Shown here piece after piece: positions 37,089 through 59,058 of a DNA stretch of 59,255 nucleotides. Origin of the DNA: an uncultured Gammaproteobacteria bacterium (GTDB taxonomy: Bacteria; Patescibacteriota; Microgenomatia; Daviesbacterales; UBA10151); NCBI GenBank assembly GCA_964396715.1, contig CAYNFQ010000004.1, positions 1-59,255 of the forward strand, written 5' to 3'. Every line of letters begins with the position of its first letter. Positions within the stretch are counted from its first letter, which is position 1. The position numbers and the translations under genes were made by a program. The notes beneath the pieces are model-generated. The model ran no database searches. It was given only the letters and a program-made list of their open reading frames with translations, and was not told the origin of the DNA.

Positions 37089-37331
37089 TCGCGAAGACTC
37101 CCGATGGCTCGGGCCGATGGTACAAAACATTTAAGGTAATCTATCGGTCCTCGCGATTATCGGGCAACACCCATTTTAGTTTTCACTACATTCCAAAATT
37201 TCCTTTTAATGGTGCTGCCCTCTTTTTTTGAGACTATATATCCGAGACTGCGGGGGCGGCGGAAGCCGCTTCCAACTTGGCCAATTTCGCCCATTTTGGC
37301 CATCCTCCTTCCGAAATGCTACAATGGAAGA

Positions 37332-45914: not shown

Positions 45915-46748
45915 TTATTGATCTAAAGTTGTTATGGGTCGAGATTGAATTATGTAAAAATTATCTTTCTCTAGAGCCCATTCAATATCTTGAGGACAAC
46001 CATAGTGTTCTTCAATTTTCTTACCCAACAGAGCAAGTTTTTTTATTTGGTTATCAGACAATGCAGACTGACTTCTTTTATTTTCTGGTACAGGAATTTC
46101 TTTATTTGCGCCTTCTTGCAACATAAGCATAACATCTTGAGTTTGGATATCCCTATCTTTTATTTCTATTGTGGCTTTATTTAGCAAAAAATTATCAGGA
46201 GTTATAATTCCCTGTACAAGCATTTCCCCTAAACCATATCCTGCTTCTATCATCATTTCATCGGCATCTTTGGTAATTGGATTGACGGTAAACATTACAC
46301 CGGATACTTCACTCTCAACCATTTTTTGTACTACTACAGCAACAATCATTCGATCCTCTGGTAAGTTTTGTTGAGCTGCATATGAGAGTGCCCTTTCCGA
46401 TTTAATAGAGTCCCAACATTTTCTAATACTATCTATTAAATTTTCCTTGGTTACATTCAAATAGCTTTCTAATTGACCGGCCCAGGAAGCTACAGACGAA
46501 TCCTCCGCTACGGCAGAGGAGCGCACAGCTACCCTTTCCGTTTTTAGGTTATCAAAAGCCTTGAATATTTCCTCTTCAACATCAGCGGGTAATTCTTGAT
46601 TATAAAATTGCAAATAAGCCTTTGTAGTAATCACAAAACCAGAAGGAACTGGTAAGCCAGCTTTTAACATTTCGCCTAATGAAACACCCTTACCCCCTGC
46701 AAGACTTACATCATTTTTTGAAATTGTTTCAAAGGTCTTAATTAGCAT
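45915..46748 (-). CDS. PEP/pyruvate-binding (PPDK_N, ATP-grasp) domain protein
   Basis: GGKGVSL, VPSGFVITT, VAVRSSAVAEDS..SWAGQ, SGVMFT.NP, PQDIEWA, IIQSRPITT. Confidence 0.92.
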   Translation of the reverse strand: MLIKTFETISKNDVSLAGGKGVSLGEMLKAGLPVPSGFVITTKAYLQFYNQELPADVEEEIFKAFDNLKTERVAVRSSAVAEDSSVASWAGQLESYLNVTKENLIDSIRKCWDSIKSERALSYAAQQNLPEDRMIVAVVVQKMVESEVSGVMFTVNPITKDADEMMIEAGYGLGEMLVQGIITPDNFLLNKATIEIKDRDIQTQDVMLMLQEGANKEIPVPENKRSQSALSDNQIKKLALLGKKIEEHYGCPQDIEWALEKDNFYIIQSRPITTLDQ

Positions 46749-46770
46749 GTTGTGGAATAAACAAACTACA

Positions 46771-48210
46771 CTAGCTTAAAATTTTTACAGTCCCGTTGTC
46801 TGCATCAACTTTAACTAGGTCTCCGTCCTTAAAAACTTTTGTTGCTAGTTTCGTACCAACAATACATGGGATACCAAATTCTCTTGATACTATGGCTGCA
46901 TGACTTGTAATACCTCCCTCATCAGTAACTATTGCAGCCACTTTTCTCATTACGGGAACATAATCAGGATGAGTAGCAACTGCAATGAAAATATTTCCTA
47001 CTTCGACTTTATTTAAATCTTTAACGCCTCTTATAATTACAACCTTTCCTTCTGCTAATCCCTTTGATGCAATTCTTCCAGTTACATCTTTTACTTTTTC
47101 TTCTTCTTGTAAAAGATTCCAAGACTTCAGGATATTTTTTATTTCATCTCCTTGTAAACAAACCAACTCTTTATTTTTATCTAAATAAACTACATAACCC
47201 TTTTTCCTTTCTGAAATAATTTCTTTTGGAACTCGTACCCCAGTTCTTAGGAAATCTTCAATTTCGCTGGTTTGTAAATAACTTGTTTCTCCAGGATCAA
47301 TATTCATTCGCCGTGCAATTTCAGCAAAAAGGGGTTGTGCATAAAATACACTTTTTCTCCTGTAATCATCACGCGCATCTTTTATATAAACAAAACGTTT
47401 GGCCATTAACAAATACTCTAAAGCTTCTTTTGATATATTCAGTTCACCAGCAATCTTTTTGAATGAGACTGGTTTTTTTGAAGAAAGAGAGGTGAACGAT
47501 TTGATATGATTTCTAAATTCTTCTTTTGTCCAGGGTTTATTATGAATATCCAGACAAGATAGCCATTTAAATTTATTAAATAAATCTTCAAATTGTTTTT
47601 CGGAAAGTTTACCATTATATTTTCCAACTTCATATTGAAGTTGGAGAACAGCTGCGTTTTTATCAGGATGGAATAAGGCATTATGTATTTCTTGCTTTCC
47701 ACTTTCTCGATTGTTTTCTGAAATATATTTATCAAGAATTGCAGTGGCGCGGTCAGCAACATAATTATTTAGAATAAACGCAGACCAAGCAAAAACAGAA
47801 TATTTATCTCGTTTATCTTGATGGTCAAAAAACAATGATAACAACTCTTTATCACTTAATGATTTAAGATTTAAACTAGAAATCTTTTTAGCAAGAGCTA
47901 AATAATTTTTCCCATCAAAGATAAATTGTTTTTCGTATTCCTCTAATTTTTTAACATGAGAAGTATATCTTTCATTAAGGCCCTCCACTAACTCTACCCA
48001 AGATTTGCTGTCAATATAAAATGCTGTATTATGTCCTTCTCCGGGGATTACTACTTGATCTGTTGAAACTTTGGGGAAGTGATAATTCGCGTCAGCTAAA
48101 AGAGATACTGCTACTTCAGAATATTGCACCCCATATTCTCGCTCGTAAATCTTTTGCCATGATAGCTTATTTATTCGATCATTAAAAATTGGATCGGGCG
48201 CATTTTTCAT
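46771..48210 (-). CDS. PEP-utilising enzyme with phospho-histidine swivel domain and unique N-terminal domain
   Basis: C-terminal IVTDEGGITSHAAIVSREFGIPCIVGT..ATKVFKDGDLVKVDA; SD AGGAG before MKNAP. Confidence 0.9.
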   Translation of the reverse strand: MKNAPDPIFNDRINKLSWQKIYEREYGVQYSEVAVSLLADANYHFPKVSTDQVVIPGEGHNTAFYIDSKSWVELVEGLNERYTSHVKKLEEYEKQFIFDGKNYLALAKKISSLNLKSLSDKELLSLFFDHQDKRDKYSVFAWSAFILNNYVADRATAILDKYISENNRESGKQEIHNALFHPDKNAAVLQLQYEVGKYNGKLSEKQFEDLFNKFKWLSCLDIHNKPWTKEEFRNHIKSFTSLSSKKPVSFKKIAGELNISKEALEYLLMAKRFVYIKDARDDYRRKSVFYAQPLFAEIARRMNIDPGETSYLQTSEIEDFLRTGVRVPKEIISERKKGYVVYLDKNKELVCLQGDEIKNILKSWNLLQEEEKVKDVTGRIASKGLAEGKVVIIRGVKDLNKVEVGNIFIAVATHPDYVPVMRKVAAIVTDEGGITSHAAIVSREFGIPCIVGTKLATKVFKDGDLVKVDADNGTVKILS

Positions 48211-48211
48211 A

Positions 48212-48787
48212 TTAACTCCTAAAAATATCGTTTTCAGAAAGTCCAAACTCACGTCTTACATTTTTTATTCTTTTAACATACTCATTGAAAATAGGTTCTG
48301 GTTTATGAATTTTGTAAAAACCTTCAGCTCCCTTATAAAGGGAACAATCAAAAACATCAACATCTTTTACTAATTCTATATAAGGATTATCAGAATAAAT
48401 TTCTTTCTCGCTATGATGAGCTACTGCCTCTGTGATTGTTTTTATATCTTCAGGAGAAAAACCACCAACCTCTTCTAAAATATTTTTCGCAATAGGAGTA
48501 CCCAATTTTGCATGGTCTTTATATTTTCCTTCGACAATCACATATATATCATGTATTAAGGAGGCCACTTCAGAAATGGTAATATCCAATCCTCTTTTTT
48601 GCGCTAGTATTCTTCCAATTTGACAACAACCAGAAGAATGCTTTAATTCCCAAACAATAGAACTTTCTCGTTCATCATCCGGTAGATTTGATTCTAGCAG
48701 TAGTTCAACAACTTTTCTTTCAACCCTTTCAGAAGGTGTAAATTCATTACCTTTGTAATGATGAAAATCTTTTAATTGATTAGCCAT
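48212..48787 (-). CDS. HD domain phosphohydrolase
   Basis: KHS...LIHDI, DHAK.G, AHHS, VKDVD HD-family motifs. Confidence 0.85.
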   Translation of the reverse strand: MANQLKDFHHYKGNEFTPSERVERKVVELLLESNLPDDERESSIVWELKHSSGCCQIGRILAQKRGLDITISEVASLIHDIYVIVEGKYKDHAKLGTPIAKNILEEVGGFSPEDIKTITEAVAHHSEKEIYSDNPYIELVKDVDVFDCSLYKGAEGFYKIHKPEPIFNEYVKRIKNVRREFGLSENDIFRS

Positions 48788-48878: not shown

Positions 48879-49058
48879 CTACATACTGTGGTGCTGCTCA
48901 TGTTCTTCAAGCTCCACTTTGGAGTTTGCTTTTAAGCCACACTTTGAACAACTTATTGAATGTTCCTGTGTTCCTTCTGTTTGTTCGGTTGGATGATTAT
49001 GCTCTTTATGCATCTCGCAAGGACAAGAGCAGGCCATACAATTATTTTGATCGTTCAT
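48879..49058 (-). CDS. Small Cys/His-rich metal-binding protein with a C2H2-type motif (59 aa; absent from ORF track)
   Basis: Manual translation MNDQNNCMACSCPCEMHKEHNHPTEQTEGTQEHSISCSKCGLKANSKVELEEHEQHHSM*; strong SD AAGGAGGTGA at 49071-49080. Confidence 0.85.
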   Translation of the reverse strand: MNDQNNCMACSCPCEMHKEHNHPTEQTEGTQEHSISCSKCGLKANSKVELEEHEQHHSM

Positions 49059-49572: not shown

Positions 49573-50286
49573 ATGAAAAATGTTAAAAAAGTTCCCAAAG
49601 TAGTCCTGGGGGTAGCAGCCCACCCTGATGATCTGGATTTTGGAGCCAGCGGGACGTTTGCCAAATGGGCAAAAGAGGGAACCGCCTGTTATTACCTGAT
49701 TTGTACCGACGGATCCAAAGGCTCTGATGATCCTGAAATGACAGAGGCTAAACTTATAAAAATCCGCCGGCAAGAACAAAAGGATGCCGCCAGGATTTTA
49801 GGCCTTAAAGATGTCTTTTTTCTTAAGCATCCTGACACACAGCTTATGGCTGATTATTCCCTTAAGGAAGAAATAACCTACTACATCAGGAAGCTAAAGC
49901 CTGAGGTTGTAATTACTATGGACCCGACTTTTGTCTATTCCTCAAAATTTGGTTTTATCAACCATACAGACCACAGGGCAGCAGGGCAGGCAACTCTTGA
50001 TGCGGTTTTTCCACTGGCCCGTGATAGGCTCACTTTCCCCAATCATTTGGCGCAGGGTTTAACGCCGCATAAGACAAAATTCCTGTATCTTGTCAGCTTT
50101 GAAAACCCCACAGAAGTTGTGGATATTTCCGAGGTAATAAAGACAAAATTAACAGCTCTCAGGGCGCATAAAAGCCAGATTAAAAAAGCTTCTTTGGCAG
50201 GCATAAAAAAGCGCCTGAAACAACTGGGTAAAGAATACGGGTTTGACTACGGGGAAGGGTTTGTCAAGATTACCCTTCCGGATTAA
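49573..50286 (+). CDS. PIG-L family deacetylase (MshB/BshB-like)
   Basis: AAHPDD, CTDGSKG, RRQEQ..AA..LG and NHTDH Zn-binding motifs, AHKSQ. Confidence 0.9.
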   Translation: MKNVKKVPKVVLGVAAHPDDLDFGASGTFAKWAKEGTACYYLICTDGSKGSDDPEMTEAKLIKIRRQEQKDAARILGLKDVFFLKHPDTQLMADYSLKEEITYYIRKLKPEVVITMDPTFVYSSKFGFINHTDHRAAGQATLDAVFPLARDRLTFPNHLAQGLTPHKTKFLYLVSFENPTEVVDISEVIKTKLTALRAHKSQIKKASLAGIKKRLKQLGKEYGFDYGEGFVKITLPD

Positions 50287-50298
50287 ATAGCTTTCTTT

Positions 50299-51507
50299 AT
50301 GTTTATTTTTAACTCACTTACCGCCAAATTAGAGCTTTTTAAACCCTTGAGTCAAAAAGAAGTCACTCTTTATGTTTGCGGGATAACCCCCTATGACACC
50401 ACCCATCTTGGGCACGCTTTTACCTATATATCATTTGATGTTTTGGTCAGGTTCCTGCGCTTTAGGGGGTATCGGGTGATCTATACCCAAAATGTCACCG
50501 ATATTAATGATAGGGATAATGATATTTTAAAGCGGGCTAAGGAACAAAAAACTACCTGGCAAAAACTTTCCCATACTTGGACAAAAAGGTTTCTTTCTGA
50601 TATGAAAAACCTAAACTGGACTGAGCCCACCAACTTTTTATATGCTTCCGGGCAAATTAAACCAATGATAAGCCTTATTGAGAAAATTATTAAAAATGGT
50701 ATTGGATATGTGGCAGGCAGCGGAGTCTATCTGGATATTACCAAAGATCCTGAGTTTGGTATTTTATCAAAGCTTTCTTCAGCTGAAATGATAGCAAAAG
50801 CAAAAGAATCTGAAGAGGATTTGGGCAGTCCCAACAAACGCCATCCTTTGGATATTACATTATGGAGGATGGCAACGCCTGATCAGCCAAAACATATTCC
50901 CTCATTTGACAGCCCCTGGGGAAAAGGCAGACCCGCCAGCGGGCGAGGCTCGCCCGGAGGGCGGCCAGGGTGGCATATTGAATGCTCTGCTATGGCGATC
51001 TCATCACTTGGCGAGCAAATTGATATTCACGGCGGAGGAAAAGATCTTATATACCCTCATCATGAAAGCGAAATCGCGCAGTCTGAGGCCGCAACTGGAA
51101 AAGTGCCATTTGTCAAGTACTGGCTTCACAGCGGCATTGTTTCCTACCAGGGTGAAAAAATGTCAAAGTCCAAAGGCAATTTAGTGATGGTCGCGGATCT
51201 TTTAAAAAAATATTCTGCAAATGCCCTGCGTTTCCTCCTTCTGTCCCATCATTACCGAGAGGATTGGGAATACTTTGAGAAGGATATTATTGAAGCGCAG
51301 AAAAAGGTTAGTTTTATAGAGTCGGCTATGAAAAATTCCCTGCCTGCTAAGGAAAATCAAAGTAGTAATTTCCAGGATAGTTTCATAGAGGTTATGGAGA
51401 ATGATTTGGACACCAGGAAGGCTCTTGATTTCCTGTATTCACTTGCCAAGAAAGGCCAAACTCAAGCGCTTAAGAAGCTGTATTATATTTTGGGGTTTAA
51501 ACCATAA
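50299..51507 (+). CDS. MshC-like cysteine ligase (CysRS paralog lacking the anticodon-binding domain)
   Basis: YVCGITPYDTTHLGHA (MshC-type, versus CGPTVYD in CysRS), QNVTD, GRPGWHIECS, PHHE, KMSKSKGN; only 402 aa. Confidence 0.8.
   Translation: MFIFNSLTAKLELFKPLSQKEVTLYVCGITPYDTTHLGHAFTYISFDVLVRFLRFRGYRVIYTQNVTDINDRDNDILKRAKEQKTTWQKLSHTWTKRFLSDMKNLNWTEPTNFLYASGQIKPMISLIEKIIKNGIGYVAGSGVYLDITKDPEFGILSKLSSAEMIAKAKESEEDLGSPNKRHPLDITLWRMATPDQPKHIPSFDSPWGKGRPASGRGSPGGRPGWHIECSAMAISSLGEQIDIHGGGKDLIYPHHESEIAQSEAATGKVPFVKYWLHSGIVSYQGEKMSKSKGNLVMVADLLKKYSANALRFLLLSHHYREDWEYFEKDIIEAQKKVSFIESAMKNSLPAKENQSSNFQDSFIEVMENDLDTRKALDFLYSLAKKGQTQALKKLYYILGFKP
50932..50963. repeat. GC-rich REP-like in-frame insertion in the MshC-like gene
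   Basis: CCCGCCAGCGGGCGAGGCTCGCCCGGAGGGCG adds 11 codons, turning PWGKGRPGW into PWGKGRPASGRGSPGGRPGW. Confidence 0.85.
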
Positions 51508-51512
51508 AATAT

Positions 51513-52067
51513 ATGAAAACTTATATTTATTTTGTAAGGCATGGTGATGTTAAAAACCCCAAAAATATCTGGTACGGCAGGCTTAAGTTTCATGGACTTT
51601 CTGAAAAAGGAAGATTGGAAACAGTAAAAGCAGCAAATTACCTAAAGGATAAGAAAATAGATTTAATCTATTCCAGTCCTCAGCTTAGAGCCAGACAAAG
51701 CGCAGAGATTATCAGAAAAAGATTAGCGATTAAAAAAATACATATTTCAAAAAAAATTAACGAGGTTAAATCATCTTTGCAGGGAAAACCTGCCATCTTT
51801 TTAGGTCTAATTGGCTGGCATATTTTTGCCTCAAAAAATAATGAAATTAAGGGTGAAACAATTGAGGATTTATCAAACAGGATGCAGGATTTTATTTCCA
51901 AAATCACCAGAATTCATAAAGGAAAACCTATTGCGGTTATCACACACGGGGACCCGATAATGATTGTTAAAGCAAAAAAAGAGGGATTACCTGTAAAAAT
52001 AGATTCAATCAGACCGCTGGATGGCAGCTATATTCAAAAAGGTGGAGTTTATCCTCTTAAAATTTGA
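51513..52067 (+). CDS. Histidine phosphatase superfamily protein
   Basis: FVRHG, SSPQLRARQSA, INE, ITHG. Confidence 0.92.
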   Translation: MKTYIYFVRHGDVKNPKNIWYGRLKFHGLSEKGRLETVKAANYLKDKKIDLIYSSPQLRARQSAEIIRKRLAIKKIHISKKINEVKSSLQGKPAIFLGLIGWHIFASKNNEIKGETIEDLSNRMQDFISKITRIHKGKPIAVITHGDPIMIVKAKKEGLPVKIDSIRPLDGSYIQKGGVYPLKI

Positions 52068-53278
52068 GAGAATTTATCAGCCAGTTTGTCCCAGCTTAAA
52101 TCCTGTACTCTTTTGTAGACTTCCTCACTCATTTTTTTATGTTCACTCTCGTTTACAAGTAAGTTTTTAATTTTTTTTGCCAAACGGATTGGATTAGATG
52201 ATGAGGTGAGCAGTGATCTGTGCTTTTTATCAAACAGGCCTGATACCCCGGCTGCATCTGTAATTATAACCGGAATTCCACAGGCCATAGCCTCCAGGGC
52301 TGTTATCCCAAAAGATTCGTATTGTGAAGGCAGCAGTACTACCTCGGATGCACTGTAGTAGTAGGGAAGGATATTCCTGTCTTTTTTCCCGACAAAATTA
52401 ACAAATATTTCTATACCTAAAACTTTTCTGATCTGCTCTAATCTGTTAAGCTCCGCTGACCACTTTTCCCGATCCTCGATCTTATTTCCTCCCACAATCC
52501 AAAGACAAATTTCTAAATCAGGATTTTTTTGCGCCAGTATTTTTATAGCGTATAAAATTACATCAATTCCTTTTAGAGGTTCAATTCTTCCCACAAAAAG
52601 GATTAATTTATGGTTGATACTTGCGCCAATTACTTTTTTGGCCGTATATTTATCAAGGGGTTTAAATAGTTTTAAATCAACCCCGGGTGTAAGGATTGAA
52701 ATTTTGCTTAACGGACAATTGTATAATGTATGAATATACTCCAAGTCGGAAGTGCTTGTTGCAATAACTTTATCTGCATATTTGACTAATTCAAATTCTG
52801 TTTTAATTCTTCCAAAGTCCGCTTTTTCTTCCTCGCTTTTGGCAACTAAATTTTTCATTAAGGCTAAAGTATGGAAGGTGATAAATAGCGGTATTTGATA
52901 TTTATTTTTTAACTGTAAGCCAATAAGGCCTGACAGGTAATAATGAGCGCTTATTAAATCATAAGATAATCCCTCTTTTCCTATAAATAAGTTTAAATTC
53001 CTGATAAATTCCGGGATATATTGAGCAAGTTCCTTTTTGGGAATTTCTACCGGTTCCCCTGCACCCAGGTGTATTACTCTTAAATTTTTTGAAACATCCC
53101 TAATTTCCGGACTGTCTTTATCAACACAGCGGGTATAAATATCAATCCCATAACCTTTTTTGGATAAGGCTTTTGATAGCTCTAAAATATAGGTATTCAT
53201 CCCGCCTATCTCTGCGTCTTTTTCATCAGTTAAAGGACAGGTGTGGTATGAGATAACAGCGATTCTTTTAATATCCAT
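52049..53278 (-). CDS. MshA-like GT4 glycosyltransferase
   Basis: RIAVISYHTCP...GGMNTY, AHYYLSG, TFHTLALMKN, PGVD, FVGRIEPLKG, PSQYESFG resemble MshA motifs. Confidence 0.82.
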   Translation of the reverse strand: MDIKRIAVISYHTCPLTDEKDAEIGGMNTYILELSKALSKKGYGIDIYTRCVDKDSPEIRDVSKNLRVIHLGAGEPVEIPKKELAQYIPEFIRNLNLFIGKEGLSYDLISAHYYLSGLIGLQLKNKYQIPLFITFHTLALMKNLVAKSEEEKADFGRIKTEFELVKYADKVIATSTSDLEYIHTLYNCPLSKISILTPGVDLKLFKPLDKYTAKKVIGASINHKLILFVGRIEPLKGIDVILYAIKILAQKNPDLEICLWIVGGNKIEDREKWSAELNRLEQIRKVLGIEIFVNFVGKKDRNILPYYYSASEVVLLPSQYESFGITALEAMACGIPVIITDAAGVSGLFDKKHRSLLTSSSNPIRLAKKIKNLLVNESEHKKMSEEVYKRVQDLSWDKLADKFSQILRG

Positions 53279-53518: not shown

Positions 53519-53776
53519 TTACATTCTCGATCGAGAAGTTATTGAAGATAAGTTTCCACAAAAATTACACTTGGCAAAGAATTCTCCGGCTTTAGCTGCC
53601 TCTCTAACCGCTTTGCTCTCTATCCAGTATTGGTTATTTAAATTGCCTACGTAAATCCCGATCACAAAAGAAACGATGATAAAAGCCAGTCCCATCATCC
53701 CTACCATTCTGCACATATTACTCATTCCTTGAGCTTTTGGTACAACTGTTTTTGGATCAATCAACATTTCTCTCAC
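53519..53776 (-). CDS. Hypothetical membrane protein, possibly 3'-truncated
   Basis: One TM helix; overlaps the stop of the upstream Zn-ribbon gene. Confidence 0.5.
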   Translation of the reverse strand: MREMLIDPKTVVPKAQGMSNMCRMVGMMGLAFIIVSFVIGIYVGNLNNQYWIESKAVREAAKAGEFFAKCNFCGNLSSITSRSRM

Positions 53777-54021
53777 CCCCTTTCTGTAAATATAGTTACT
53801 TCAACAGAGCCACACAATCTACATTGAAATGGTTCAGACCCAATGAGACACTCCGGACACATATAGATTCCGTCTTTATAAATCAGCTCGCTCTGTTTGC
53901 ACCTGTTACATAAAAAAGTCACTCTGTCCTGATGAATCAACCCGTCATTAGGACATAAAAAATGGATATTTGGTTTTTGGAAACTATCCTGACAACTTTG
54001 ACAACTTTGAATTCCAACCAT
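53773..54021 (-). CDS. Multi-CxxC zinc-ribbon protein (82 aa)
   Basis: CQSC, CPND, CNRC, CPEC, CRLC. Confidence 0.8.
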   Translation of the reverse strand: MVGIQSCQSCQDSFQKPNIHFLCPNDGLIHQDRVTFLCNRCKQSELIYKDGIYMCPECLIGSEPFQCRLCGSVEVTIFTERG

Positions 54022-54054
54022 ATAAAATAAATTTACTACTCAACTAACTTTTAA

Positions 54055-54075
54055 TCTGTTGTTTGGATGACAATT
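54055..54075. promoter_or_regulatory. 21-bp site, copy 2 (putative Crp/Fnr-family operator)
   Basis: TCTGTTGTTTGGATGACAATT, directly downstream of the crp-like gene and 33 bp upstream of the Zn-ribbon ATG. Confidence 0.6.
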
Positions 54076-54077
54076 TT

Positions 54078-54743
54078 TTAAAGATCCTGCAGTTTTTGCA
54101 GATTAAAAGAGATTATTTTACTTTCTCTTTTGATAATCCCCTGATACTCAAATTTATTTAACAGTTCTGTCATGGTAGGGCGGGAGATTCCGATCATGTC
54201 TGCCAATTGCTCATGGGTAAATTTGGTGGTAATTATTACTCTATCATCCGTTACCTCCCCATGTTTTTTGGCAAGCCTTAACAGTAAATTTTTTACTTTA
54301 ACTAGTAAATTATCTGAAGCTAATGCTGCCACCTGTTTCTCAGACTCAACTATCTTGGTAAATAGCTCTTTAACCAGAGTATTGGCAATTGGAGGATGCT
54401 GGCTAACCATCTTAAAAAACTCATTCTTATCCATCACACAGACAAAAGAGTCTGTGGTAGCTTCAATAAATTGTTCAGCGACCTCATTAATACCCAAATC
54501 ACCAAAGACATCCCCTGGCCCTAAAATATCAATAATGATTTTTTTACCCTCCGGTGTCAGCTGATAAATTTCTACTTTGCCCACTTTTAAGATAAAAACC
54601 TTATTGCGGTCCTGTGGCTCCAGTATTACCTCTTTCTTCCCATATTCTTTAGCAGCAAAATGTTCCCCAATGTATTCAATTGCCTGCTCCGGGAGGGTCT
54701 TAAACAAATTTAGCTGTTTTAAAACCATCAGTTTTCTGTTCAT
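54078..54743 (-). CDS. Crp/Fnr family transcriptional regulator
   Basis: cNMP-binding-like domain (GKVEIYQLTPEGKKIIIDILGPGDVFG) and HTH THEQLADMIGISRPTMT. Confidence 0.93.
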   Translation of the reverse strand: MNRKLMVLKQLNLFKTLPEQAIEYIGEHFAAKEYGKKEVILEPQDRNKVFILKVGKVEIYQLTPEGKKIIIDILGPGDVFGDLGINEVAEQFIEATTDSFVCVMDKNEFFKMVSQHPPIANTLVKELFTKIVESEKQVAALASDNLLVKVKNLLLRLAKKHGEVTDDRVIITTKFTHEQLADMIGISRPTMTELLNKFEYQGIIKRESKIISFNLQKLQDL

Positions 54744-54745
54744 AG

Positions 54746-56155
54746 CTAAACACAACAACTAAGTTTGGTAATGTCTTTGGTAAAAGACAGGGCGGCAATT
54801 TTAATGGCCTCGGAGAGCGTTGGAAACATGGGGAGTGAGTTTGCAACATCATCAATAGTATTTTTATTTTTGATAAGTACCATTGCCTCTGCAATCAATT
54901 CTCCTGCATTTGGTGCCAGTATATGAACTCCCGTAATTTGTTTTGTTTCTGGATGGATTGCCATTTTAATTAGTCCTTCAGTTCTGTTTAAAATAATAGC
55001 TTTAGGTATGTCTTGGAAAGAAACAGTCTTACACATACACGTTCCAAATCTCTTCATTTGATCTTCTTCTGTAAACCCTACTCCTGCCAGCTGTGGATCA
55101 GTAAAAATTGTCCAAGGGACAGTATTATAATCAATGCTATTCTGAACATTATTTAAGGCGTTCTCTGCTACTAAAGTTCCCTCTCTGCCTGCTGTTGGCT
55201 CCTGTCTGATTGGTAGATTTATTACATCACCTACTGCATAGATATGTGGCTGTGAGGTTTGGAAGTTTGGATTTACAATAATTGCTTGCTTTTCATCTAC
55301 CTCAACGCCTGCTTTATCTAAAGCTAATCCCTGGGTGTTGGGAGTTTTACCTGTTGCCAGTAATATTTCATCCCCCTTCGCCAAGGCTTCGGGGGACAAG
55401 TCTGCTGCTTTGTATACTAAAACTTTTTTACCGCCTTCTTGATATGCTTTTTGAATTTGAACATTGGTTTTAATGGTGATTCCTTCTTTGGTCAGTATTT
55501 CGGCTAATCTATCGGTTAGCTCTCTTTCAGCCGGAGGGAAAATAGAGGCATTTCTTTGTAAAAGAGTAACTTTAGTGCCAAACCTTGAATACATCTGGGC
55601 AAACTCTAAACCTAATGGTCCTGCACCCACTACAATGAGTTCTTTAGGTTGCTCTTTAATCTGTAGAGCTTCAATATGAGTTAAATAGCCCACTTCTTTA
55701 ATTCCTTCAATTGGCGGTACAGTGGCAGTTGAACCTGCTGCAATAATGATTTTTTTGGCTTGATATCGTTGCCCTTCAACTGCTATCTCATTTGGAGAAA
55801 CAAAACTAGCCTTACCCTCCAGATGAGTAACATTTTCTAAATTCCTTAGTACCTTCTCATATTTCTCTTCTCTTAGTTTTGCAACAAGATCGAGTTCGTG
55901 CTGGACAACAGTTGAAAAATCAAAGTTTTTAACTTCTATATCAACTCCCGGAATATTGTGACTTTTGGCAAGATGCATGACTTCACCTGCCCAAAGTAAA
56001 GTCTTTGAAGGAACACAGCCCACATTGACACAGGTGCCGCCTAAAGGCAGACCCTGATTAACCATCAGAGTCTTTACACCAAGCTCATTTGCTTTAATTG
56101 CAGAGGCAAAAGCCCCTGCACCTCCACCAATAATGATTAAATCAAAATTTTCCAT
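54746..56155 (-). CDS. merA: Mercuric reductase (short form, no NmerA domain)
   Basis: GGGAGA, GGTCVNVGCVPSK redox dithiol, GAGPLGLE, YAVGD and the C-terminal vicinal cysteines KLSCCV. Confidence 0.85.
   Translation of the reverse strand: MENFDLIIIGGGAGAFASAIKANELGVKTLMVNQGLPLGGTCVNVGCVPSKTLLWAGEVMHLAKSHNIPGVDIEVKNFDFSTVVQHELDLVAKLREEKYEKVLRNLENVTHLEGKASFVSPNEIAVEGQRYQAKKIIIAAGSTATVPPIEGIKEVGYLTHIEALQIKEQPKELIVVGAGPLGLEFAQMYSRFGTKVTLLQRNASIFPPAERELTDRLAEILTKEGITIKTNVQIQKAYQEGGKKVLVYKAADLSPEALAKGDEILLATGKTPNTQGLALDKAGVEVDEKQAIIVNPNFQTSQPHIYAVGDVINLPIRQEPTAGREGTLVAENALNNVQNSIDYNTVPWTIFTDPQLAGVGFTEEDQMKRFGTCMCKTVSFQDIPKAIILNRTEGLIKMAIHPETKQITGVHILAPNAGELIAEAMVLIKNKNTIDDVANSLPMFPTLSEAIKIAALSFTKDITKLSCCV
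55371..55400. repeat. REP-like hairpin in frame in merA
   Basis: TCCCCCTTCGCCAAGGCTTCGGGGGACAAG encodes LSPEALAKGD on the minus strand; same family as 29228-29257. Confidence 0.8.
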
Positions 56156-56163
56156 AAAAATAC

Positions 56164-56412
56164 TTAGCCCGCCAACGCTTTACGAAGCTGCTGCTCAGTT
56201 GCCCCGCCTTGAAAAGCAAGTTTGCCATCAATCACAATCCCTGGTGAAGCCATCATACCGTATTCTTGAACCATTTTTTGCCCTTTTTCAGAAAGCATAT
56301 CTACCTTCTCAAGCTCCATTTCCTGCCTGTCTTTTTTAATGTTTTCTAAAGCCGACCAAGCCTGCATGCAATGAGCGCAGCTCTCGGAGCTTATAAATTG
56401 GACTTTTGCCAT
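56164..56412 (-). CDS. Thioredoxin/glutaredoxin-like protein
   Basis: SESCAHC (CxxC) and MASPGIVIDG (cis-Pro loop); SD GGAGGTGG. Confidence 0.85.
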   Translation of the reverse strand: MAKVQFISSESCAHCMQAWSALENIKKDRQEMELEKVDMLSEKGQKMVQEYGMMASPGIVIDGKLAFQGGATEQQLRKALAG

Positions 56413-56549
56413 TTTCCCCACCTCCTTCTAATCAGTTGGGCTGTAATTGCCGACAAGATTACTATCCCAAAAAACAAAACCGGCCCAAGCCAGGCTGCCT
56501 GGCCAGTGCTCACTCCTTCTTCATGAGCTAAAATCACAAACCTAAACAT
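56391..56549 (-). CDS. Small membrane protein (52 aa; absent from ORF track)
   Basis: MFRFVILAHEEGVSTGQAAWLGPVLFFGIVILSAITAQLIRRRWGKWQKSNL*; SD AAGGAG; overlaps both neighbours in operon style. Confidence 0.65.
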   Translation of the reverse strand: MFRFVILAHEEGVSTGQAAWLGPVLFFGIVILSAITAQLIRRRWGKWQKSNL

Positions 56550-57498
56550 TATTTGACTCCTTCTTAAAGCTGCTCCAAATTATTATGCCCGCCAAAACCG
56601 CCCCCATGAATATCCAAGGCCAGATTCCTGAAGTGCCACCCTGTATTTGTAGAATTGCCTCAATTTCTGCCGATTCAGCAATCTTGGGAAATATAATTTC
56701 AACTGCTCTATTCCAGAAAGCATGAAAAATAGACTCCTCCCACCAAGCCATCCCAAATGGTAAATAAGTCAAAAGGAATGCTCCAATACCAACCAGCCCC
56801 CAGCCGGTATAGTTTTTGACTGCTTTCTGGTGAGTTGCCAACCAATTGGTAGCGCTGACTCCCAGCATGGCTAAAACTACTAGGAAAATAAGCGGTGTTG
56901 CTCTTCCTAAACCATGAACCAATCCCAGCCAAAAACCTTCGATAGGCAGACCAATAGTGGCAATATGGGTTAAAAGTACATAAAAAAGCGGATTGGGACA
57001 GCCGACTCCGGCATTTCCTAAAAGAATCCCCATTGCAAAAGATTTAGTGTAATCTCCCGACCTTTGCAAATAGGAAGGCAGTATGGTGGGCAGAAAGGGT
57101 ATGTTCAACTTTAGTAAACCCAGCTCACGTAATCCAAAAAGAATGGCAAGTAAACCCGCAACACCAAACATCCCGCGAACAAATTGATTCATCCCAATGT
57201 AACCACCGACCAATCCTACTGCGGCTCCATAAAAAGAAAGCGTAATTGCCAGTCCTAAGCCAAACAGAATTGCCATCATTAAAGCTTTGCCAGGAGCTTT
57301 GCCCAAAGCCAGAGGAACAATCACAAAAACCAAGGGCAGTGTGCAGGGTAAAACTATCATGGAAAGCCCTGCAACATATGCCAATAACAAGCTCGCAGTT
57401 AAGGCCGGGGTAGTTGCCAACCAACCCATGCCAATGATGAAAATTGATAGTAGAATAAACGCTAACGACACTAAGAAAATTTTTACCTGTCTGTCCAT
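56542..57498 (-). CDS. CcdA/DsbD-type transmembrane disulfide transporter
   Basis: Multi-TM with the two Cys motifs LPCTLP and GCPNP. Confidence 0.8.
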   Translation of the reverse strand: MDRQVKIFLVSLAFILLSIFIIGMGWLATTPALTASLLLAYVAGLSMIVLPCTLPLVFVIVPLALGKAPGKALMMAILFGLGLAITLSFYGAAVGLVGGYIGMNQFVRGMFGVAGLLAILFGLRELGLLKLNIPFLPTILPSYLQRSGDYTKSFAMGILLGNAGVGCPNPLFYVLLTHIATIGLPIEGFWLGLVHGLGRATPLIFLVVLAMLGVSATNWLATHQKAVKNYTGWGLVGIGAFLLTYLPFGMAWWEESIFHAFWNRAVEIIFPKIAESAEIEAILQIQGGTSGIWPWIFMGAVLAGIIIWSSFKKESNNV

Positions 57499-57499
57499 T

Positions 57500-57835
57500 T
57501 TAAGTAATAAAGTTTTTCAAAGTTTTAGTAAAATCATTCCGTACAAGCGAGTAGTACACTGTTTGAGATTCTTTTCTTCTTTTGACCAGCTCCAGCTTCA
57601 GTAGCTTGTTTAAGCTATGAGAAACAACGGAAACAGAGGTATCTAAAATTTGAGCAATTTCTCCTACACTCAGTTCCGGATAATGACAAAGCAGATAACA
57701 AATTTTAATCCTGGTAGCATCACCAACAACACCTAGCTGCTTGGCACAAGCAATAAGTTCTTTTTTGTTTTTTAACTCTTTCTTAATTTGCTGATGTATA
57801 GACATAGTATTTGAACGATTATTCAAATAATACAT
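57500..57835 (-). CDS. ArsR/SmtB family transcriptional regulator
   Basis: GDATRIKICYLL....LSVGEIA....SVSVVSHSL..L....LV..RKESQTVYYSL. Confidence 0.92.
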   Translation of the reverse strand: MYYLNNRSNTMSIHQQIKKELKNKKELIACAKQLGVVGDATRIKICYLLCHYPELSVGEIAQILDTSVSVVSHSLNKLLKLELVKRRKESQTVYYSLVRNDFTKTLKNFIT

Positions 57836-57858
57836 CTTTAAAATCTATCTGTCAAGGA

Positions 57859-59058
57859 CTACTTAAAAAGCTCCGTATCTGGATGGAACGCTGCCCAGGC
57901 AAACCAGAATAGTCTGATAGGAATTATTTCTTCATTTGTTTGCAGGTTTACTGCTTTAATCTCACCGGATTCTTTCTGCTCCAGTCTTATAGGAATATCT
58001 CCAATGCTATCTTCGATAATCCTTTTTTCTCTCAACTTATTTTCGGGATATGCTTTAGATTTACCACCTATCTCTATCCCGTAAACAACTGTTTTTATCT
58101 GGTAAGCTCTGATGATCCCTTTGTAGTTAATGGCAAAAACCATATCTTCATCCCTTAACCAACCAGCATCATTTGCAGATTCAAATTTCGGACTGTCAAT
58201 AGAAGGAATGCAGTCTTGCCCAAAACAACCCTGTAAAAGGTCTTCTGGTTTTACCTTTGCTCCGGTAAAATCATTTTGTAAAGATACTTTTTGCACTTGC
58301 TGCCCACCTCCTTTTAACTCTCTAAGTTGTGTGTCAACTTTAACGCTACTTTCAAAAGTAGTTGCAATTTGAGTCCAAGACTGTGGTAAATTAGCCAATG
58401 TCCACCCTTGTAATACTCTATCCAGGCCTGTCCAAATAAAAAGGGCGGTTGCTAAGATAATAATTCCAAATACTTGTCTGATCTTTTGGTTTTCAGTTTT
58501 TAAAAAAGCTAATTTCTGAGAAGCTGCACTTCCACCCCTTGCAATAAAGTACAGCGGGATTCCTGCGCCGATGGCATAGGCCAGCACTACTGCTATCATT
58601 GATAGAGAAAATGAACTGACTGCAGCCAGAGTGGCCATGGCTGCTACAACCGGGCCAATACAGGGTGTCCAGACAATTCCTAAGCTTGTGCCTGTTAAAA
58701 ATCCTCCCCAGAAGCCGCTATTTTGATTTTGCACTGGCTGAAAATGCCAATGCCTTTCAATCCAGATTTGGACTTTTTCCCAAATAACAGGAAACACAAG
58801 ACTTATCCCAAATATTACCAAAAGTACTACTGCCAAGGCTCTGACAGTATCGGCAGGGATTCCTAAAACTCTAACTATTGTTGCCAAAAGCAAAGAGGCA
58901 ATGGTAAAACTTATAACAAGTCCTAAGATAACCCCCTTTATTCTTCTGGTATTTCCATCAATACCGCTTGCCAAAACAGCAGGGAGTATGGGTAAAACAC
59001 AGGGAGAAAAAGAAGTTAATATTCCTGATATAAAAGCAATAGGTATGAGCAGAAACAT
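57859..59058 (-). CDS. CcdA-like protein fused to a shortened DUF3179-like domain
   Basis: FSPCVLPILP and WTPCIGP; C-terminal DCIPSIDSPKF...AY...FWFAWAAFHPDT. Confidence 0.8.
   Translation of the reverse strand: MFLLIPIAFISGILTSFSPCVLPILPAVLASGIDGNTRRIKGVILGLVISFTIASLLLATIVRVLGIPADTVRALAVVLLVIFGISLVFPVIWEKVQIWIERHWHFQPVQNQNSGFWGGFLTGTSLGIVWTPCIGPVVAAMATLAAVSSFSLSMIAVVLAYAIGAGIPLYFIARGGSAASQKLAFLKTENQKIRQVFGIIILATALFIWTGLDRVLQGWTLANLPQSWTQIATTFESSVKVDTQLRELKGGGQQVQKVSLQNDFTGAKVKPEDLLQGCFGQDCIPSIDSPKFESANDAGWLRDEDMVFAINYKGIIRAYQIKTVVYGIEIGGKSKAYPENKLREKRIIEDSIGDIPIRLEQKESGEIKAVNLQTNEEIIPIRLFWFAWAAFHPDTELFK

What the first reader, a model, noticed from the sequence alone, without database searches (positions are those of the whole stretch)
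49573..53278. Clustered mycothiol-like pathway (MshB-, MshC-, phosphatase, MshA-like): candidate novel low-molecular-weight thiol system
Seen: four adjacent intact genes: a PIG-L deacetylase; a 402-aa CysRS paralog with the MshC-type CGITPYDxTHLGH motif and no anticodon domain; an RHG histidine phosphatase; and a convergent GT4 with MshA-type HTxP...GGMNxY and TFHTLA motifs. Established: mycothiol is made by MshA (GlcNAc to inositol-phosphate), an unidentified phosphatase MshA2, MshB, MshC and the acetyltransferase MshD. The genes are normally dispersed in Actinobacteria. Bacillithiol uses an unrelated BshC. Inference: this organism makes a Cys-GlcN-X thiol, possibly non-acetylated or with a different aglycone, since no mshD or ino1 is in the window. 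The clustered phosphatase is a candidate for the missing MshA2 step. Such biosynthesis is unexpected in a minimal-metabolism CPR-like genome, and thiol-redox and MerA genes lie next door.
Basis: partly seen in the sequence, partly recalled or inferred. Interest (0 to 1): 0.88.

Follow-up and report, generated by a model that had tools for sequence, protein, structure and literature searches.

The report
Mycothiol-like thiol gene cluster in CPR
A tiny-genome groundwater bacterium (Microgenomates, CPR) carries four adjacent genes that most likely build a cysteine-aminosugar antioxidant related to mycothiol and bacillithiol; no such thiol is reported from this group, but its exact structure is unknown and I could not show that these genomes also keep an ordinary cysteinyl-tRNA synthetase.

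Summary
**Observation: confirmed.** Four intact genes lie at 49573-53278: a PIG-L/LmbE deacetylase, a 402-aa CysRS-like ligase without an anticodon domain, an RHG histidine phosphatase, and a convergent GT4.

**Interpretation: partly supported.**
- The ligase groups with M. smegmatis MshC and other short ligases, excluding every full-length CysRS in the sample (bootstrap 200/200; 198/200 on core columns).
- It has lost residues that are near-invariant in canonical CysRS.
- Across deeply divergent Microgenomates genomes the four families recur as neighbours in overlapping pairs: GT4-phosphatase, phosphatase-ligase, deacetylase-ligase. About 75 canonical cysS loci show nothing similar.

**Limits.**
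- The GT4 is not demonstrably MshA. A real sucrose-phosphate synthase scores the same on the MshA model (286 vs 290 bits; true MshA 711). Only a phosphorylated acceptor is supported.
- The deacetylase is closer to BshB/chitobiose deacetylases than to MshB.
- The window has no ino1 or GNAT.
- In several genomes the ligase stands alone among housekeeping genes.
- I could not verify a separate full-length cysS.

**Best reading (about 0.6):** a Cys-GlcN-X low-molecular-weight thiol pathway, a new variant of the mycothiol/bacillithiol kind. Its phosphatase is an MshA2-like step by analogy only.

The parts
49573..50286 (+). PIG-L/LmbE-family zinc deacetylase (237 aa). Proposed role: removes the N-acetyl group from GlcNAc-X.
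   Evidence: PF02585, E 4e-29. Best NCBIfam hits are BshB1 (99 bits) and BshB2 (87), both below cutoff; MshB scores only 41. Best PDB matches are archaeal diacetylchitobiose deacetylases (116 bits) and BshB (58-67 bits). Orthologues at 64-66% identity sit immediately upstream of the ligase in L007 and L009.
50299..51507 (+). MshC-type cysteine ligase (402 aa): CysRS catalytic core plus helical domain, no anticodon-binding domain. Proposed role: ATP-dependent ligation of Cys to the amine of GlcN-X.
   Evidence: Model coverage and scores. Clade with M. smegmatis MshC excluding all CysRS of 440 aa or more: 200/200 and 198/200 bootstraps. All 127 family members score higher on an MshC-type HMM than on a canonical-core HMM, by 36 bits on average. 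Canonical-invariant residues are lost. AlphaFold model pLDDT 90; MshC 3c8z is covered end to end (TM 0.87/0.87, rmsd 1.8 A), while the tRNA-bound CysRS 1u0b has TMt 0.77.
50932..50964 (+). GC-rich palindromic in-frame insertion of about 33 nt (11 aa, about GRPASGRGSPG) just before the GRPGWHIEC zinc-ligand motif. Coordinates are approximate, because the flanking GRPG repeat makes the boundary ambiguous.
   Evidence: Present at the same site in only 5 of 127 family members, including the distant L012. Occurs once in the window. Modelled as a disordered loop, pLDDT below 50 at residues 210-218.
51513..52067 (+). Histidine-phosphatase superfamily (branch 1) enzyme, 184 aa. Proposed role: dephosphorylates the GT4 product GlcNAc-X-phosphate (an MshA2-like step).
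   Evidence: PF00300, E 3e-24. No NCBIfam equivalog is reached; the best is cobC at 71 bits. R9-H10-G11, R59, E84 and H145 are present in the sequence. Orthologues at 43-52% identity lie next to the GT4 in 6 of 8 GT4 loci and overlap the ligase start in L006, L097 and L179.
52049..53278 (-). Retaining GT4 glycosyltransferase of the MshA/sucrose-phosphate-synthase type (409 aa). Proposed role: transfers GlcNAc from UDP-GlcNAc to a phosphorylated acceptor X-P.
   Evidence: TIGR03449 290 bits full length, cutoff 462.5. PDB: CgMshA 210 bits, TeSPS 189. Acceptor-phosphate ligands K81 and R157 correspond to TeSPS R105 and R178; the donor ligand H136 corresponds to TeSPS H158; R231, K236, E321 and E329 are conserved. 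It has GGMN and FHTLA as in MshA, against GGQN and YHSLG in TeSPS.

Best explanation
The four genes encode a compact pathway for a cysteinyl-glucosamine glycoside (Cys-GlcN-X), a low-molecular-weight thiol of the mycothiol/bacillithiol kind, in a Microgenomates (CPR) bacterium.

Proposed steps:
1. The GT4 transfers GlcNAc from UDP-GlcNAc to a phosphorylated acceptor X-P. X is unknown: inositol phosphate, or a glycolytic sugar, glycerate or glycerol phosphate.
2. The histidine phosphatase removes the phosphate.
3. The PIG-L enzyme removes the acetyl group.
4. The MshC-type ligase activates cysteine as Cys-AMP on its zinc site and joins it to the free amine.

No acetyltransferase is linked, so the product is probably not N-acetylated, as in bacillithiol.

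Shown here: gene identities, the ligase's place in the MshC clade, conserved catalytic and phosphate-binding residues, and recurrent gene linkage.

Inferred, not shown: the GlcNAc donor, every substrate, the thiol-buffer role, and the existence of a separate CysRS in the genome.
For: **Ligase**
- It lacks the anticodon domain.
- It clusters with M. smegmatis MshC, an Acidimicrobiales short ligase that lies next to a 495-aa cysS (L029), and short Chloroflexota ligases. This clade excludes all 139 full-length CysRS sampled (200/200 bootstraps; 198/200 on core columns).
- Residues 86-98% conserved in canonical CysRS (E. coli K72, G165, R167, N236) are retained in 0% of 127 family members.
- All 127 members prefer an MshC-type HMM built without any CPR sequence.

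**Gene linkage**
- GT4-phosphatase: window, L006, L096, L097, L098, L179.
- Phosphatase-ligase: window, L006, L097, L179.
- PIG-L-ligase: window, L007, L009.
- These proteins are only 50-65% identical between lineages.
- About 75 canonical cysS loci have no such neighbours. Fisher p = 5e-4 on 4/8 against 2/76 lineages.

**GT4**: it keeps the acceptor-phosphate ligands and the donor ligands.

**Catalytic motifs**: all four enzymes have intact catalytic motifs.

**Context, suggestive only**: MerA, thioredoxin and DsbD-like genes flank the window cluster. Glyoxalase-family, MsrA/B and SUF genes lie near the cluster genes in L006, L092, L095 and L097.
Against: - No biochemical data exist for any family member.
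- The ligase scores higher on the broad cysS model (381 bits, above its 340 cutoff) than on the narrow MshC model (318, cutoff 485). It also scores higher against CysRS crystal-structure sequences (about 282 bits) than against MshC (229).
- In L092-L094 the ligase stands alone among housekeeping genes, and in L012 no partner lies on the short contig. In L095 and L117 the GT4 stands alone.
- I could not show that any Microgenomates genome carrying this ligase also has a full-length CysRS.
- The GT4 is as close to a sucrose-phosphate synthase as to MshA.
- No ino1, mshD-like GNAT or dedicated disulfide reductase is in the window.
- The tree is neighbour-joining only.
Confidence: 0.62

Rival explanations
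1. The short ligase is simply the housekeeping, possibly only, cysteinyl-tRNA synthetase of Microgenomates, one that has lost its anticodon domain. The GT4, phosphatase and deacetylase make an unrelated GlcN-glycoside (a compatible solute or envelope precursor), and the adjacency is incidental or regulatory. A variant of this reading: one enzyme does both jobs.
For: - It passes NCBI's cysS cutoff (381 bits against 340), and NCBI names the family cysteine--tRNA ligase.
- It sits alone beside NDK, GroEL/ES and other housekeeping genes in three long contigs, L092-L094; in L012 no partner lies on the short contig.
- No full-length CysRS from CPR turned up in any search. The nearest full-length relatives were archaeal, Chloroflexota or Desulfobacterota.
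- No second CysRS-like gene occurs in about 350 kb of Microgenomates sequence examined.
Against: - It falls in a clade with biochemically defined MshC, with 198-200/200 bootstrap support.
- Residues near-invariant in CysRS across bacteria and archaea are lost.
- The anticodon domain, which is coupled to catalysis in E. coli CysRS, is absent.
- It overlaps or abuts the phosphatase or deacetylase gene in operon-like arrangements in several divergent lineages, a pattern absent from about 75 real cysS loci.
- My searches were never able to target a single genome, so failing to find a second CysRS says little.
Confidence: 0.15
2. The cluster makes authentic mycothiol or des-acetyl-mycothiol (Cys-GlcN-inositol). 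On this reading the GT4 is a divergent true MshA using 1L-myo-inositol-1-phosphate, with ino1 (and perhaps mshD) elsewhere in the genome.
For: - The best NCBIfam and PDB hits of the GT4 are MshA.
- GGMN and HTLA motifs match MshA rather than the sucrose-phosphate synthase.
- IMG/KEGG-style annotation already names family members D-inositol-3-phosphate glycosyltransferase and mshC.
- Two small GNAT genes lie 2-3 kb from the GT4-phosphatase pair in L098.
Against: - The MshA model score (290) equals that of a genuine sucrose-phosphate synthase (286) and is far below true MshA (711).
- No inositol-phosphate synthase was seen in the window or in any of the roughly 20-kb related loci.
- The deacetylase does not resemble MshB.
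- CPR genomes have very limited biosynthesis (general knowledge).
Confidence: 0.13
3. The product is a cysteinyl-aminosugar that is not a cytoplasmic redox buffer, for example a building block of a surface glycoconjugate or a small natural product.
For: - The window and related loci are rich in envelope glycosylation genes: other GT4s, Wzy, PMT-like, PIG-V-like and LysM proteins.
- No thiol-specific reductase, S-transferase or amidase was identified near the cluster.
Against: - No transporter, flippase or polymerase is consistently linked to the four genes.
- Every characterised pathway with the GT4 + LmbE deacetylase + cysteine ligase logic makes a thiol buffer: mycothiol and bacillithiol.
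Confidence: 0.1

Closest known systems
Mycothiol biosynthesis of Actinobacteria (MshA, MshA2, MshB, MshC, MshD)
   Same: The chemical logic and order are the same: a GT4 acting on a phosphorylated acceptor, then a phosphatase, an LmbE-family deacetylase, and an ATP-dependent CysRS-derived cysteine ligase. The ligase falls in the same clade as M. smegmatis MshC and shares its domain architecture.
   Different: - All curated MshA, MshB and MshC cutoffs are missed.
- The GT4 is no closer to MshA than to a sucrose-phosphate synthase.
- The deacetylase is BshB/Dac-like.
- No mshD or ino1 is linked.
- The genes are clustered, and a specific phosphatase gene is attached, whereas the papers I read name MshA2 only as an activity.
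- The host is a CPR bacterium.
Bacillithiol biosynthesis (BshA, BshB, BshC)
   Same: It uses a GT4 plus an LmbE deacetylase, and the deacetylase's best family hits are BshB1 and BshB2. The likely product, like bacillithiol, is a non-acetylated Cys-GlcN glycoside. In more distant uncultured lineages the GT4 and PIG-L genes are adjacent.
   Different: - Per the review read, BshA's acceptor is L-malate and the three-step BSH pathway has no phosphatase. Here the phosphate-binding residues and a linked phosphatase point to a phospho-acceptor.
- The ligase is MshC-type, not BshC. No BshC-like ORF is in the window.
Sucrose-phosphate synthase / sucrose-phosphate phosphatase (e.g. T. elongatus Tll1590, PDB 6KIH)
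   Same: It is a GT4 of the same subfamily, with homologous acceptor-phosphate ligands and donor ligands, followed by a dedicated phosphatase.
   Different: - The residue that contacts fructose (TeSPS Q51) is Met here, as in MshA.
- From general knowledge, canonical sucrose-phosphate phosphatase is a HAD-family enzyme; here the phosphatase belongs to the histidine-phosphatase family.
- The phosphatase gene is fused in an operon to a cysteine ligase, and in the window also to an N-deacetylase. Neither has a role in sucrose synthesis.
Canonical cysteinyl-tRNA synthetase (TIGR00435; E. coli 1LI5/1U0B)
   Same: The Rossmann catalytic core, HIGH and KMSKS motifs, the zinc site for cysteine selection and the helical bundle are shared. 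The score is above the cysS model cutoff.
   Different: It has no anticodon-binding domain, has lost canonical-invariant residues, sits phylogenetically outside all full-length CysRS sampled, and has an operon context with sugar-modifying enzymes.

Membership tests
MshC (Cys:GlcN-Ins ligase, TIGR03447) | CysRS-like catalytic core with HIGH, KMSKS and Cys/Cys/His zinc ligands | tested here: met
   HLGH 36-39, KMSKS 287-291, and C27, C229 and H254 are invariant in the family alignment. They align with MsMshC C43, C231 and H256 as described in PMC9736012.
MshC (Cys:GlcN-Ins ligase, TIGR03447) | No tRNA anticodon-binding domain; length about 400 aa | tested here: met
   The protein is 402 aa. The cysS model is covered only over positions 1-378 of 466. 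The model superposes on the whole of MshC 3c8z (TMt 0.87) but leaves part of tRNA-bound CysRS uncovered (1u0b TMt 0.77).
MshC (Cys:GlcN-Ins ligase, TIGR03447) | Groups with characterised MshC to the exclusion of CysRS | tested here: met
   NJ bootstrap 200/200 and 198/200 on core columns. An independent HMM test favours the MshC type for 127 of 127 members.
MshC (Cys:GlcN-Ins ligase, TIGR03447) | Reaches the curated equivalog score | tested here: not met
   318.5 bits against a cutoff of 485.1. Even the Acidimicrobiales short ligase reaches only 407.
MshC (Cys:GlcN-Ins ligase, TIGR03447) | Coexists with a separate full-length CysRS in the same genome | tested here: inconclusive
   Shown only for the Acidimicrobiales relative L029, where the genes are adjacent. 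No tool let me search a whole Microgenomates genome, and the probes found no CPR full-length CysRS.
MshC (Cys:GlcN-Ins ligase, TIGR03447) | Ligates cysteine to GlcN-inositol | not testable with these tools
   Needs an enzyme assay.
Canonical CysRS (TIGR00435) | Reaches the curated score | tested here: met
   381 bits against a cutoff of 340. The model is broad, and other MshC-clade proteins also pass it.
Canonical CysRS (TIGR00435) | C-terminal anticodon-binding domain | tested here: not met
Canonical CysRS (TIGR00435) | Residues near-invariant across full-length CysRS (E. coli K72, G165, R167, K184, N236) | tested here: not met
   0%, 0%, 0%, 9% and 0% retention respectively among 127 family members.
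MshA (D-inositol-3-phosphate glycosyltransferase, TIGR03449) | Reaches the curated equivalog score, with specificity against related GT4s | tested here: not met
   290.5 bits against a cutoff of 462.5. TeSPS, a proven sucrose-phosphate synthase, scores 286 and CgMshA 711.
MshA (D-inositol-3-phosphate glycosyltransferase, TIGR03449) | Ligands for the phosphate of a phosphorylated acceptor, and UDP/donor ligands | tested here: met
   K81, Y113 and R157 correspond to CgMshA K78, Y110 and R154; K81 and R157 also correspond to TeSPS R105 and R178. H136, R231, K236, E321 and E329 are conserved. The role of Y110 in CgMshA is from my memory of Vetting et al. 2008, a paper that was not held.
MshA (D-inositol-3-phosphate glycosyltransferase, TIGR03449) | Uses UDP-GlcNAc and 1L-myo-inositol-1-phosphate | not testable with these tools
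   The GlcNAc donor is inferred only from the linked N-deacetylase and amine-directed ligase. The acceptor is unknown.
MshB / BshB (LmbE-family GlcNAc-glycoside deacetylases) | PIG-L fold with His/Asp/His metal site and catalytic Asp | tested here: met
   PF02585, E 4e-29. AHPDD at 16-20 and HTDH at 131-134 are in the sequence.
MshB / BshB (LmbE-family GlcNAc-glycoside deacetylases) | Reaches a curated equivalog score | tested here: not met
   BshB1 98.9 (cutoff 182.5), BshB2 86.6 (195), MshB 40.7 (224), Mca 50.7 (277).
MshD (mycothiol synthase, double-GNAT) | GNAT acetyltransferase present with the pathway | tested here: not met
   No Acetyltransf domain in any scanned window ORF. Only L098 has small GNAT genes nearby.
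Histidine phosphatase superfamily, branch 1 | RHG motif, second Arg, catalytic acid and distal His | tested here: met
   PF00300, E 2.8e-24. R9-H10-G11, R59, E84 and H145 are present. No specific equivalog is reached.
Bacillithiol system | BshC-type ligase | tested here: not met
   None of the ORFs scanned with Pfam or NCBIfam matched a BshC family. The only ORFs of comparable size (506 and 542 aa) are a PMT_2-type and a TPR protein.

The most novel reading that the evidence does not exclude
Microgenomates, and perhaps other CPR bacteria, make a structurally new low-molecular-weight thiol: a non-acetylated Cys-GlcN-X whose aglycone X is neither inositol nor malate but a dephosphorylated central-metabolism phosphate ester. 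On this reading the dedicated histidine phosphatase would be the first gene assigned to the 'MshA2-type' step. An even stranger version that I cannot exclude: in genomes where the ligase stands alone, this MshC-type enzyme is also the only CysRS-like protein and charges tRNA-Cys without an anticodon domain.
Probability: 0.3. Interest if true: 0.82.

Novelty: new variant of a known kind. Interest (0 to 1): 0.6.

Why it matters
CPR bacteria are thought to have almost no biosynthetic capacity, and no thiol redox buffer has been described for them. A dedicated four-enzyme thiol pathway would be a notable investment. In the window it sits beside a mercury reductase and thiol-disulfide proteins. If real, it would bear on how these organisms cope with oxygen, metals and electrophiles.

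It would also extend the MshC-type ligase family well beyond Actinobacteria, since short relatives also occur in Chloroflexota. And it would offer a concrete, testable gene for the phosphatase step, which the mycothiol papers I read name only as an activity.

It also has a practical side. NCBI names these ligases 'cysteine--tRNA ligase', they pass the cysS model used as a phylogenomic marker, and at least one study zeroes mycothiol-gene calls outside Actinomycetota. Both practices may mislead for this group.

Tried and rejected
- **GTDB genome scan with the ligase.** Only L012 was a family member. I reused the rest as a negative control and as labelled tree references.
- **Search for a CPR full-length CysRS.** I used the representative search, three cluster look-ups and a profile of two unlabelled full-length clades. 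These returned DPANN and other archaea, Chloroflexota, Melainabacteria and Desulfobacterota, never CPR. The same-genome test therefore failed for lack of a tool that searches one genome.
- **Contig-length fingerprinting between the ligase and GT4 hit lists.** Only three matches (105660, 32505, 4446). The method is too lossy to count co-occurrence.
- **Metagenome scan with a GT4 family alignment.** It was flooded by 30-41%-identity relatives, with only L117 and L151 close. It did reveal GT4 + PIG-L pairs in other lineages.
- **Literature.** Nothing on mycothiol-like genes or CysRS in CPR. The MshA structure paper PMC2414306 is not held, so I took residue roles from PMC2628429 and the TeSPS paper instead.
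- **Foldseek on the ligase model.** CysRS and MshC match equally well by score, so only the architecture is informative.
- **The GC-rich insertion as a repeated element.** It occurs once in the window and is not unusually stable.
- **L041 as an MshC reference.** Rejected: it is a normal CysRS cut off by the contig end.
- **The split GT4 in L006 as evidence of pathway decay.** Rejected: it is a single missing C in a C-run.

Full report
**1. What is there**

The window is a piece of a Patescibacteria/Microgenomates (CPR) genome with about 38% G+C. It carries ordinary housekeeping genes:
- MurG, FtsA, FtsZ and FtsW
- a class I aaRS, ParB and signal peptidase
- PolX, GatA/GatB, DnaE and RNase HII
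- ribosomal proteins L19 and L21, glutamine synthetase and six tRNAs

. The closest relatives of the cluster proteins are named Daviesbacteria, Levybacteria, Microgenomates or 'Patescibacteria group'.

| Gene | Coordinates | Length | Key features |
|---|---|---|---|
| PIG-L/LmbE deacetylase | 49573-50286 (+) | 237 aa | AHPDD and HTDH motifs |
| CysRS-like ligase | 50299-51507 (+) | 402 aa | C27-GITPYDTTHLGH-39, KMSKS 287-291; covers only positions 1-378 of the 466-position cysS model |
| Histidine phosphatase | 51513-52067 (+) | 184 aa | R9-H10-G11, R59, E84, H145 |
| GT4 glycosyltransferase | 52049-53278 (-) | 409 aa | GGMNTY and TFHTLA |

. The first three genes are separated by 12 and 5 nt, and the GT4 converges on them with a 19-nt overlap. 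The same block is found on five independent Logan contigs.

**2. The ligase is MshC-type, not an ordinary CysRS**

Curated models and pairwise scores are ambiguous:
- cysS model: 381 bits (cutoff 340).
- MshC model: 318 bits (cutoff 485).
- CysRS crystal-structure sequences: about 282 bits. MshC: 229 bits.

The MshC model is narrow, however. An Acidimicrobiales short ligase (L029) also misses its cutoff (407 bits), even though its best PDB match is M. smegmatis MshC and it lies directly beside a 495-aa cysS.

I built a tree from these sequences:
- 127 Microgenomates family members, subsampled
- the 150 best representatives from a 1.84-billion-protein library
- 40 taxonomically labelled ORFs from genome loci
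- M. smegmatis MshC

All proteins of about 372-435 aa in one clade, namely the Microgenomates family, MsMshC, L029, and short Chloroflexia and Dehalococcoidia ligases, group together. They exclude every protein of 440 aa or more in 200 of 200 NJ bootstraps, and in 198 of 200 when only core columns shared by all are used.

Two independent checks agree:
1. At positions 86-98% conserved among 139 full-length CysRS but lost in the non-CPR MshC-type group (E. coli K72, G165, R167, N236), none of the 127 family members keeps the canonical residue.
2. With HMMs built only from non-CPR sequences, all 127 members score higher on the MshC-type profile than on the canonical-core profile, by 36 bits on average (range 11-58).

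An AlphaFold model (pLDDT 90, pTM 0.90) superposes on the whole of MshC (3c8z: TM 0.87/0.87, rmsd 1.8 A). The tRNA-bound E. coli enzyme keeps an extra domain uncovered (1u0b TMt 0.77). By score alone, the fold search does not separate the two.

**3. The four families are linked across deep lineages**

The contexts of family members come, summarised:

| Arrangement | Loci |
|---|---|
| GT4 opposite or overlapping the phosphatase | window, L006, L096, L097, L098, L179 (6 of 8 GT4 loci) |
| Phosphatase directly upstream of, and overlapping, the ligase | L006, L097, L179 |
| Ligase directly upstream of the phosphatase (5-nt gap) | window |
| PIG-L directly upstream of the ligase | window, L007, L009 |

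Apart from the L006/L097/L179 sublineage (67-76% identity), these loci are only 50-65% identical in the shared proteins. The arrangement has therefore been kept, or re-made, over long divergence.

About 75 canonical cysS loci from many phyla show essentially none of these neighbours. Counting conservatively by independent lineage gives 4 of 8 against 2 of 76, Fisher p = 5e-4.

The linkage is not universal. The ligase is alone within 10 kb either side in L092, L093 and L094, beside NDK, GroEL/ES and other housekeeping genes. In L012 no partner lies on the short 6.7-kb contig. The GT4 is alone in L095 and L117. In Actinobacteria the msh genes are dispersed anyway, so this does not argue against a pathway. 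It does leave room for a pathway-independent role of the ligase.

**4. What the other three enzymes are, and are not**

*GT4.* Its best hits are MshA (TIGR03449, 290 bits, full length; CgMshA 210 bits), which looks persuasive until calibrated:
- T. elongatus Tll1590, a biochemically proven sucrose-phosphate synthase, scores 286 bits on the same model.
- True MshA scores 711.
- Window GT4, CgMshA and TeSPS are mutually equidistant, at 226, 209 and 199 bits.

The sequence does support a phosphorylated acceptor. The TeSPS acceptor-phosphate ligands R105 and R178 (PMC7264703) align with the window's K81 and R157 and with CgMshA K78 and R154. The donor ligand H158 aligns with H136. The UDP ligands are conserved. 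Unrelated GT4s lack these residues. At the residue that contacts fructose in TeSPS (Q51), the window and MshA both have Met. The 'GGMN...FHTL[AG]' signature is shared with a wide set of uncultured enzymes.

*Deacetylase.* It is an LmbE enzyme closest to archaeal chitobiose deacetylases and BshB, not to MshB.

*Phosphatase.* It is a divergent histidine-phosphatase member with no equivalog.

*Missing genes.* Neither an inositol-phosphate synthase nor a GNAT is in the window.

**5. Most likely mechanism**

1. UDP-GlcNAc plus X-phosphate gives GlcNAc-X-P (GT4).
2. GlcNAc-X-P gives GlcNAc-X (histidine phosphatase).
3. GlcNAc-X gives GlcN-X (PIG-L).
4. GlcN-X gives Cys-GlcN-X (MshC-type ligase, through Cys-AMP on the zinc site).

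The GlcNAc donor is inferred from the presence of an N-deacetylase and an amine-directed ligase. X is unknown. The absence of a linked acetyltransferase suggests a free-amine thiol, as in bacillithiol.

The context is suggestive only. The window cluster lies next to a bona fide MerA (509 bits against a 454 cutoff), a Crp/Fnr regulator, a thioredoxin-like protein, two DsbD-like membrane proteins and an ArsR regulator. Elsewhere, glyoxalase-family genes (L006, L092), MsrA/MsrB (L095) and the SUF system (L097) lie nearby.

I put this explanation at about 0.62.

**6. Rivals**

- **Housekeeping CysRS (0.15).** The ligase is the lineage's housekeeping, perhaps only, CysRS, and the other genes make an unrelated glycoside. 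This rival stays alive mainly because I could not search a whole Microgenomates genome for a second cysS. All my probes for a CPR full-length CysRS found other phyla, and the ligase often sits among housekeeping genes.
- **True mycothiol or des-acetyl-mycothiol (0.13).** The GT4 is a divergent true MshA, with ino1 elsewhere in the genome.
- **A cysteinyl-aminosugar that is not a redox buffer (0.10).**

**7. Comparison with what is known, and novelty**

The system works like mycothiol synthesis (phospho-acceptor GT4, phosphatase, LmbE deacetylase, MshC-type ligase) with bacillithiol-like features (BshB-like deacetylase, no acetylation). It fails the curated membership thresholds for MshA, MshB/BshB and MshC. 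I therefore file it as a new variant of a known kind, not as mycothiol biosynthesis.

IMG already labels family members mshA and mshC, and NCBI labels the ligase cysteine--tRNA ligase. I found no paper that discusses such a pathway in CPR. One study explicitly discards mycothiol-gene calls outside Actinomycetota.

The papers I read name MshA2 only as an activity. The phosphatase here is a candidate for the equivalent step in this system. No orthology to an actinobacterial gene was shown.

**8. Verdict**

It is a credible, testable candidate for the first low-molecular-weight thiol pathway in CPR bacteria. Two questions remain open: the identity of the aglycone, and whether a separate CysRS exists. 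Interest 0.6.

Noticed in passing
window 50932-50964 (within the ligase gene): A GC-rich palindromic in-frame insertion of about 33 nt (11 aa, about GRPASGRGSPG) lies just before the zinc-ligand motif. Near-identical insertions at the same site occur in only 5 of 127 family members, including L012 at 51% overall identity. That pattern suggests either repeated loss or a small mobile in-frame element. The loop is disordered in the model.
   Followed up: partly
window 53519-59058: A metal and redox island lies next to the cluster: two small ORFs (one a Cys-rich zinc-ribbon-like protein of 82 aa), a Crp/Fnr regulator, a core-type MerA ending in CC (TIGR02053, 509 bits, cutoff 454), an MJ0307-type thioredoxin, two DsbD-like membrane proteins (one with DUF3179) and an ArsR/SmtB regulator.
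   Followed up: partly
L029 10001-12700 (Acidimicrobiales chromosome OZ224042.1): A 394-aa MshC-type ligase lies directly next to a full-length 495-aa cysS. This is a tandem paralogue pair, and it gave the only direct example of the short and long forms coexisting.
   Followed up: partly
L113, L124, L125, L126, L138, L142, L144 (JGI/ENA metagenome contigs): More distant 'GGMN...FHTLG' GT4s (30-43% identity; those scored reach 363-387 bits on the MshA model) have a PIG-L deacetylase gene 33-70 nt away (about 1.6 kb in L142). This suggests further uncharacterised GlcN-glycoside or thiol pathways in other uncultured lineages.
   Followed up: no
L013 and L026 (Chloroflexia and Dehalococcoidia MAGs): Short MshC-type ligases (411 and 392 aa) with the CG(I/V)TPYD.(T/G)HLGHA motif occur in Chloroflexota, outside Actinobacteria. 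No partner genes lie within 10 kb.
   Followed up: no
L098 7174-8012 (GCA_964429365.1, labelled Saccharimonadales): Two adjacent small GNAT ORFs (144 and 132 aa) lie 2-3 kb upstream of a GT4-phosphatase pair. This could be a split two-domain acetyltransferase of the MshD kind, or coincidence.
   Followed up: no
L179 (GCA_035526025.1, labelled Limnocylindrales): This contig is syntenic with the CPR loci L006 and L097 (transglycosylase, ligase, phosphatase, GT4, CNNM), with 67-76% identical proteins. That suggests a mis-binned CPR contig or a recent transfer into a Chloroflexota MAG.
   Followed up: no
L006 about 6590-6600 (1.14-Mb contig ERZ25039485 contig_6640): The GT4 is split into 289- and 142-aa ORFs by one missing C in a short C-run. 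Both halves are otherwise intact (57-58% identity to the window GT4). It is probably an assembly error rather than a pseudogene.
   Followed up: yes
window 141-836, 6253-6927, 39780-40190: Three IS200/Y1-transposase-like ORFs occur in a 59-kb stretch of a small genome. Two carry long N-terminal extensions and match the family only weakly.
   Followed up: no
window 45915-48252: The pyruvate-phosphate-dikinase/PEP-synthase-like function is split into two adjacent ORFs: a 277-aa PPDK_N protein and a 493-aa protein with only the PEP-utilizer mobile domain at its C-terminus. An HD-domain protein follows.
   Followed up: no
window 48879-49058 (-): A 59-aa Cys/His-rich ORF (CMACSCPCEMH...HEQHH) with no family match lies between the HD-domain gene and the cluster. 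It may be a small metal-binding protein.
   Followed up: no
window 37209-37973 and 41645-42688: An AbiEi-like antitoxin-domain protein and a SIR2_2-domain protein lie near an IS200-like gene, so this may be a small defence island.
   Followed up: no
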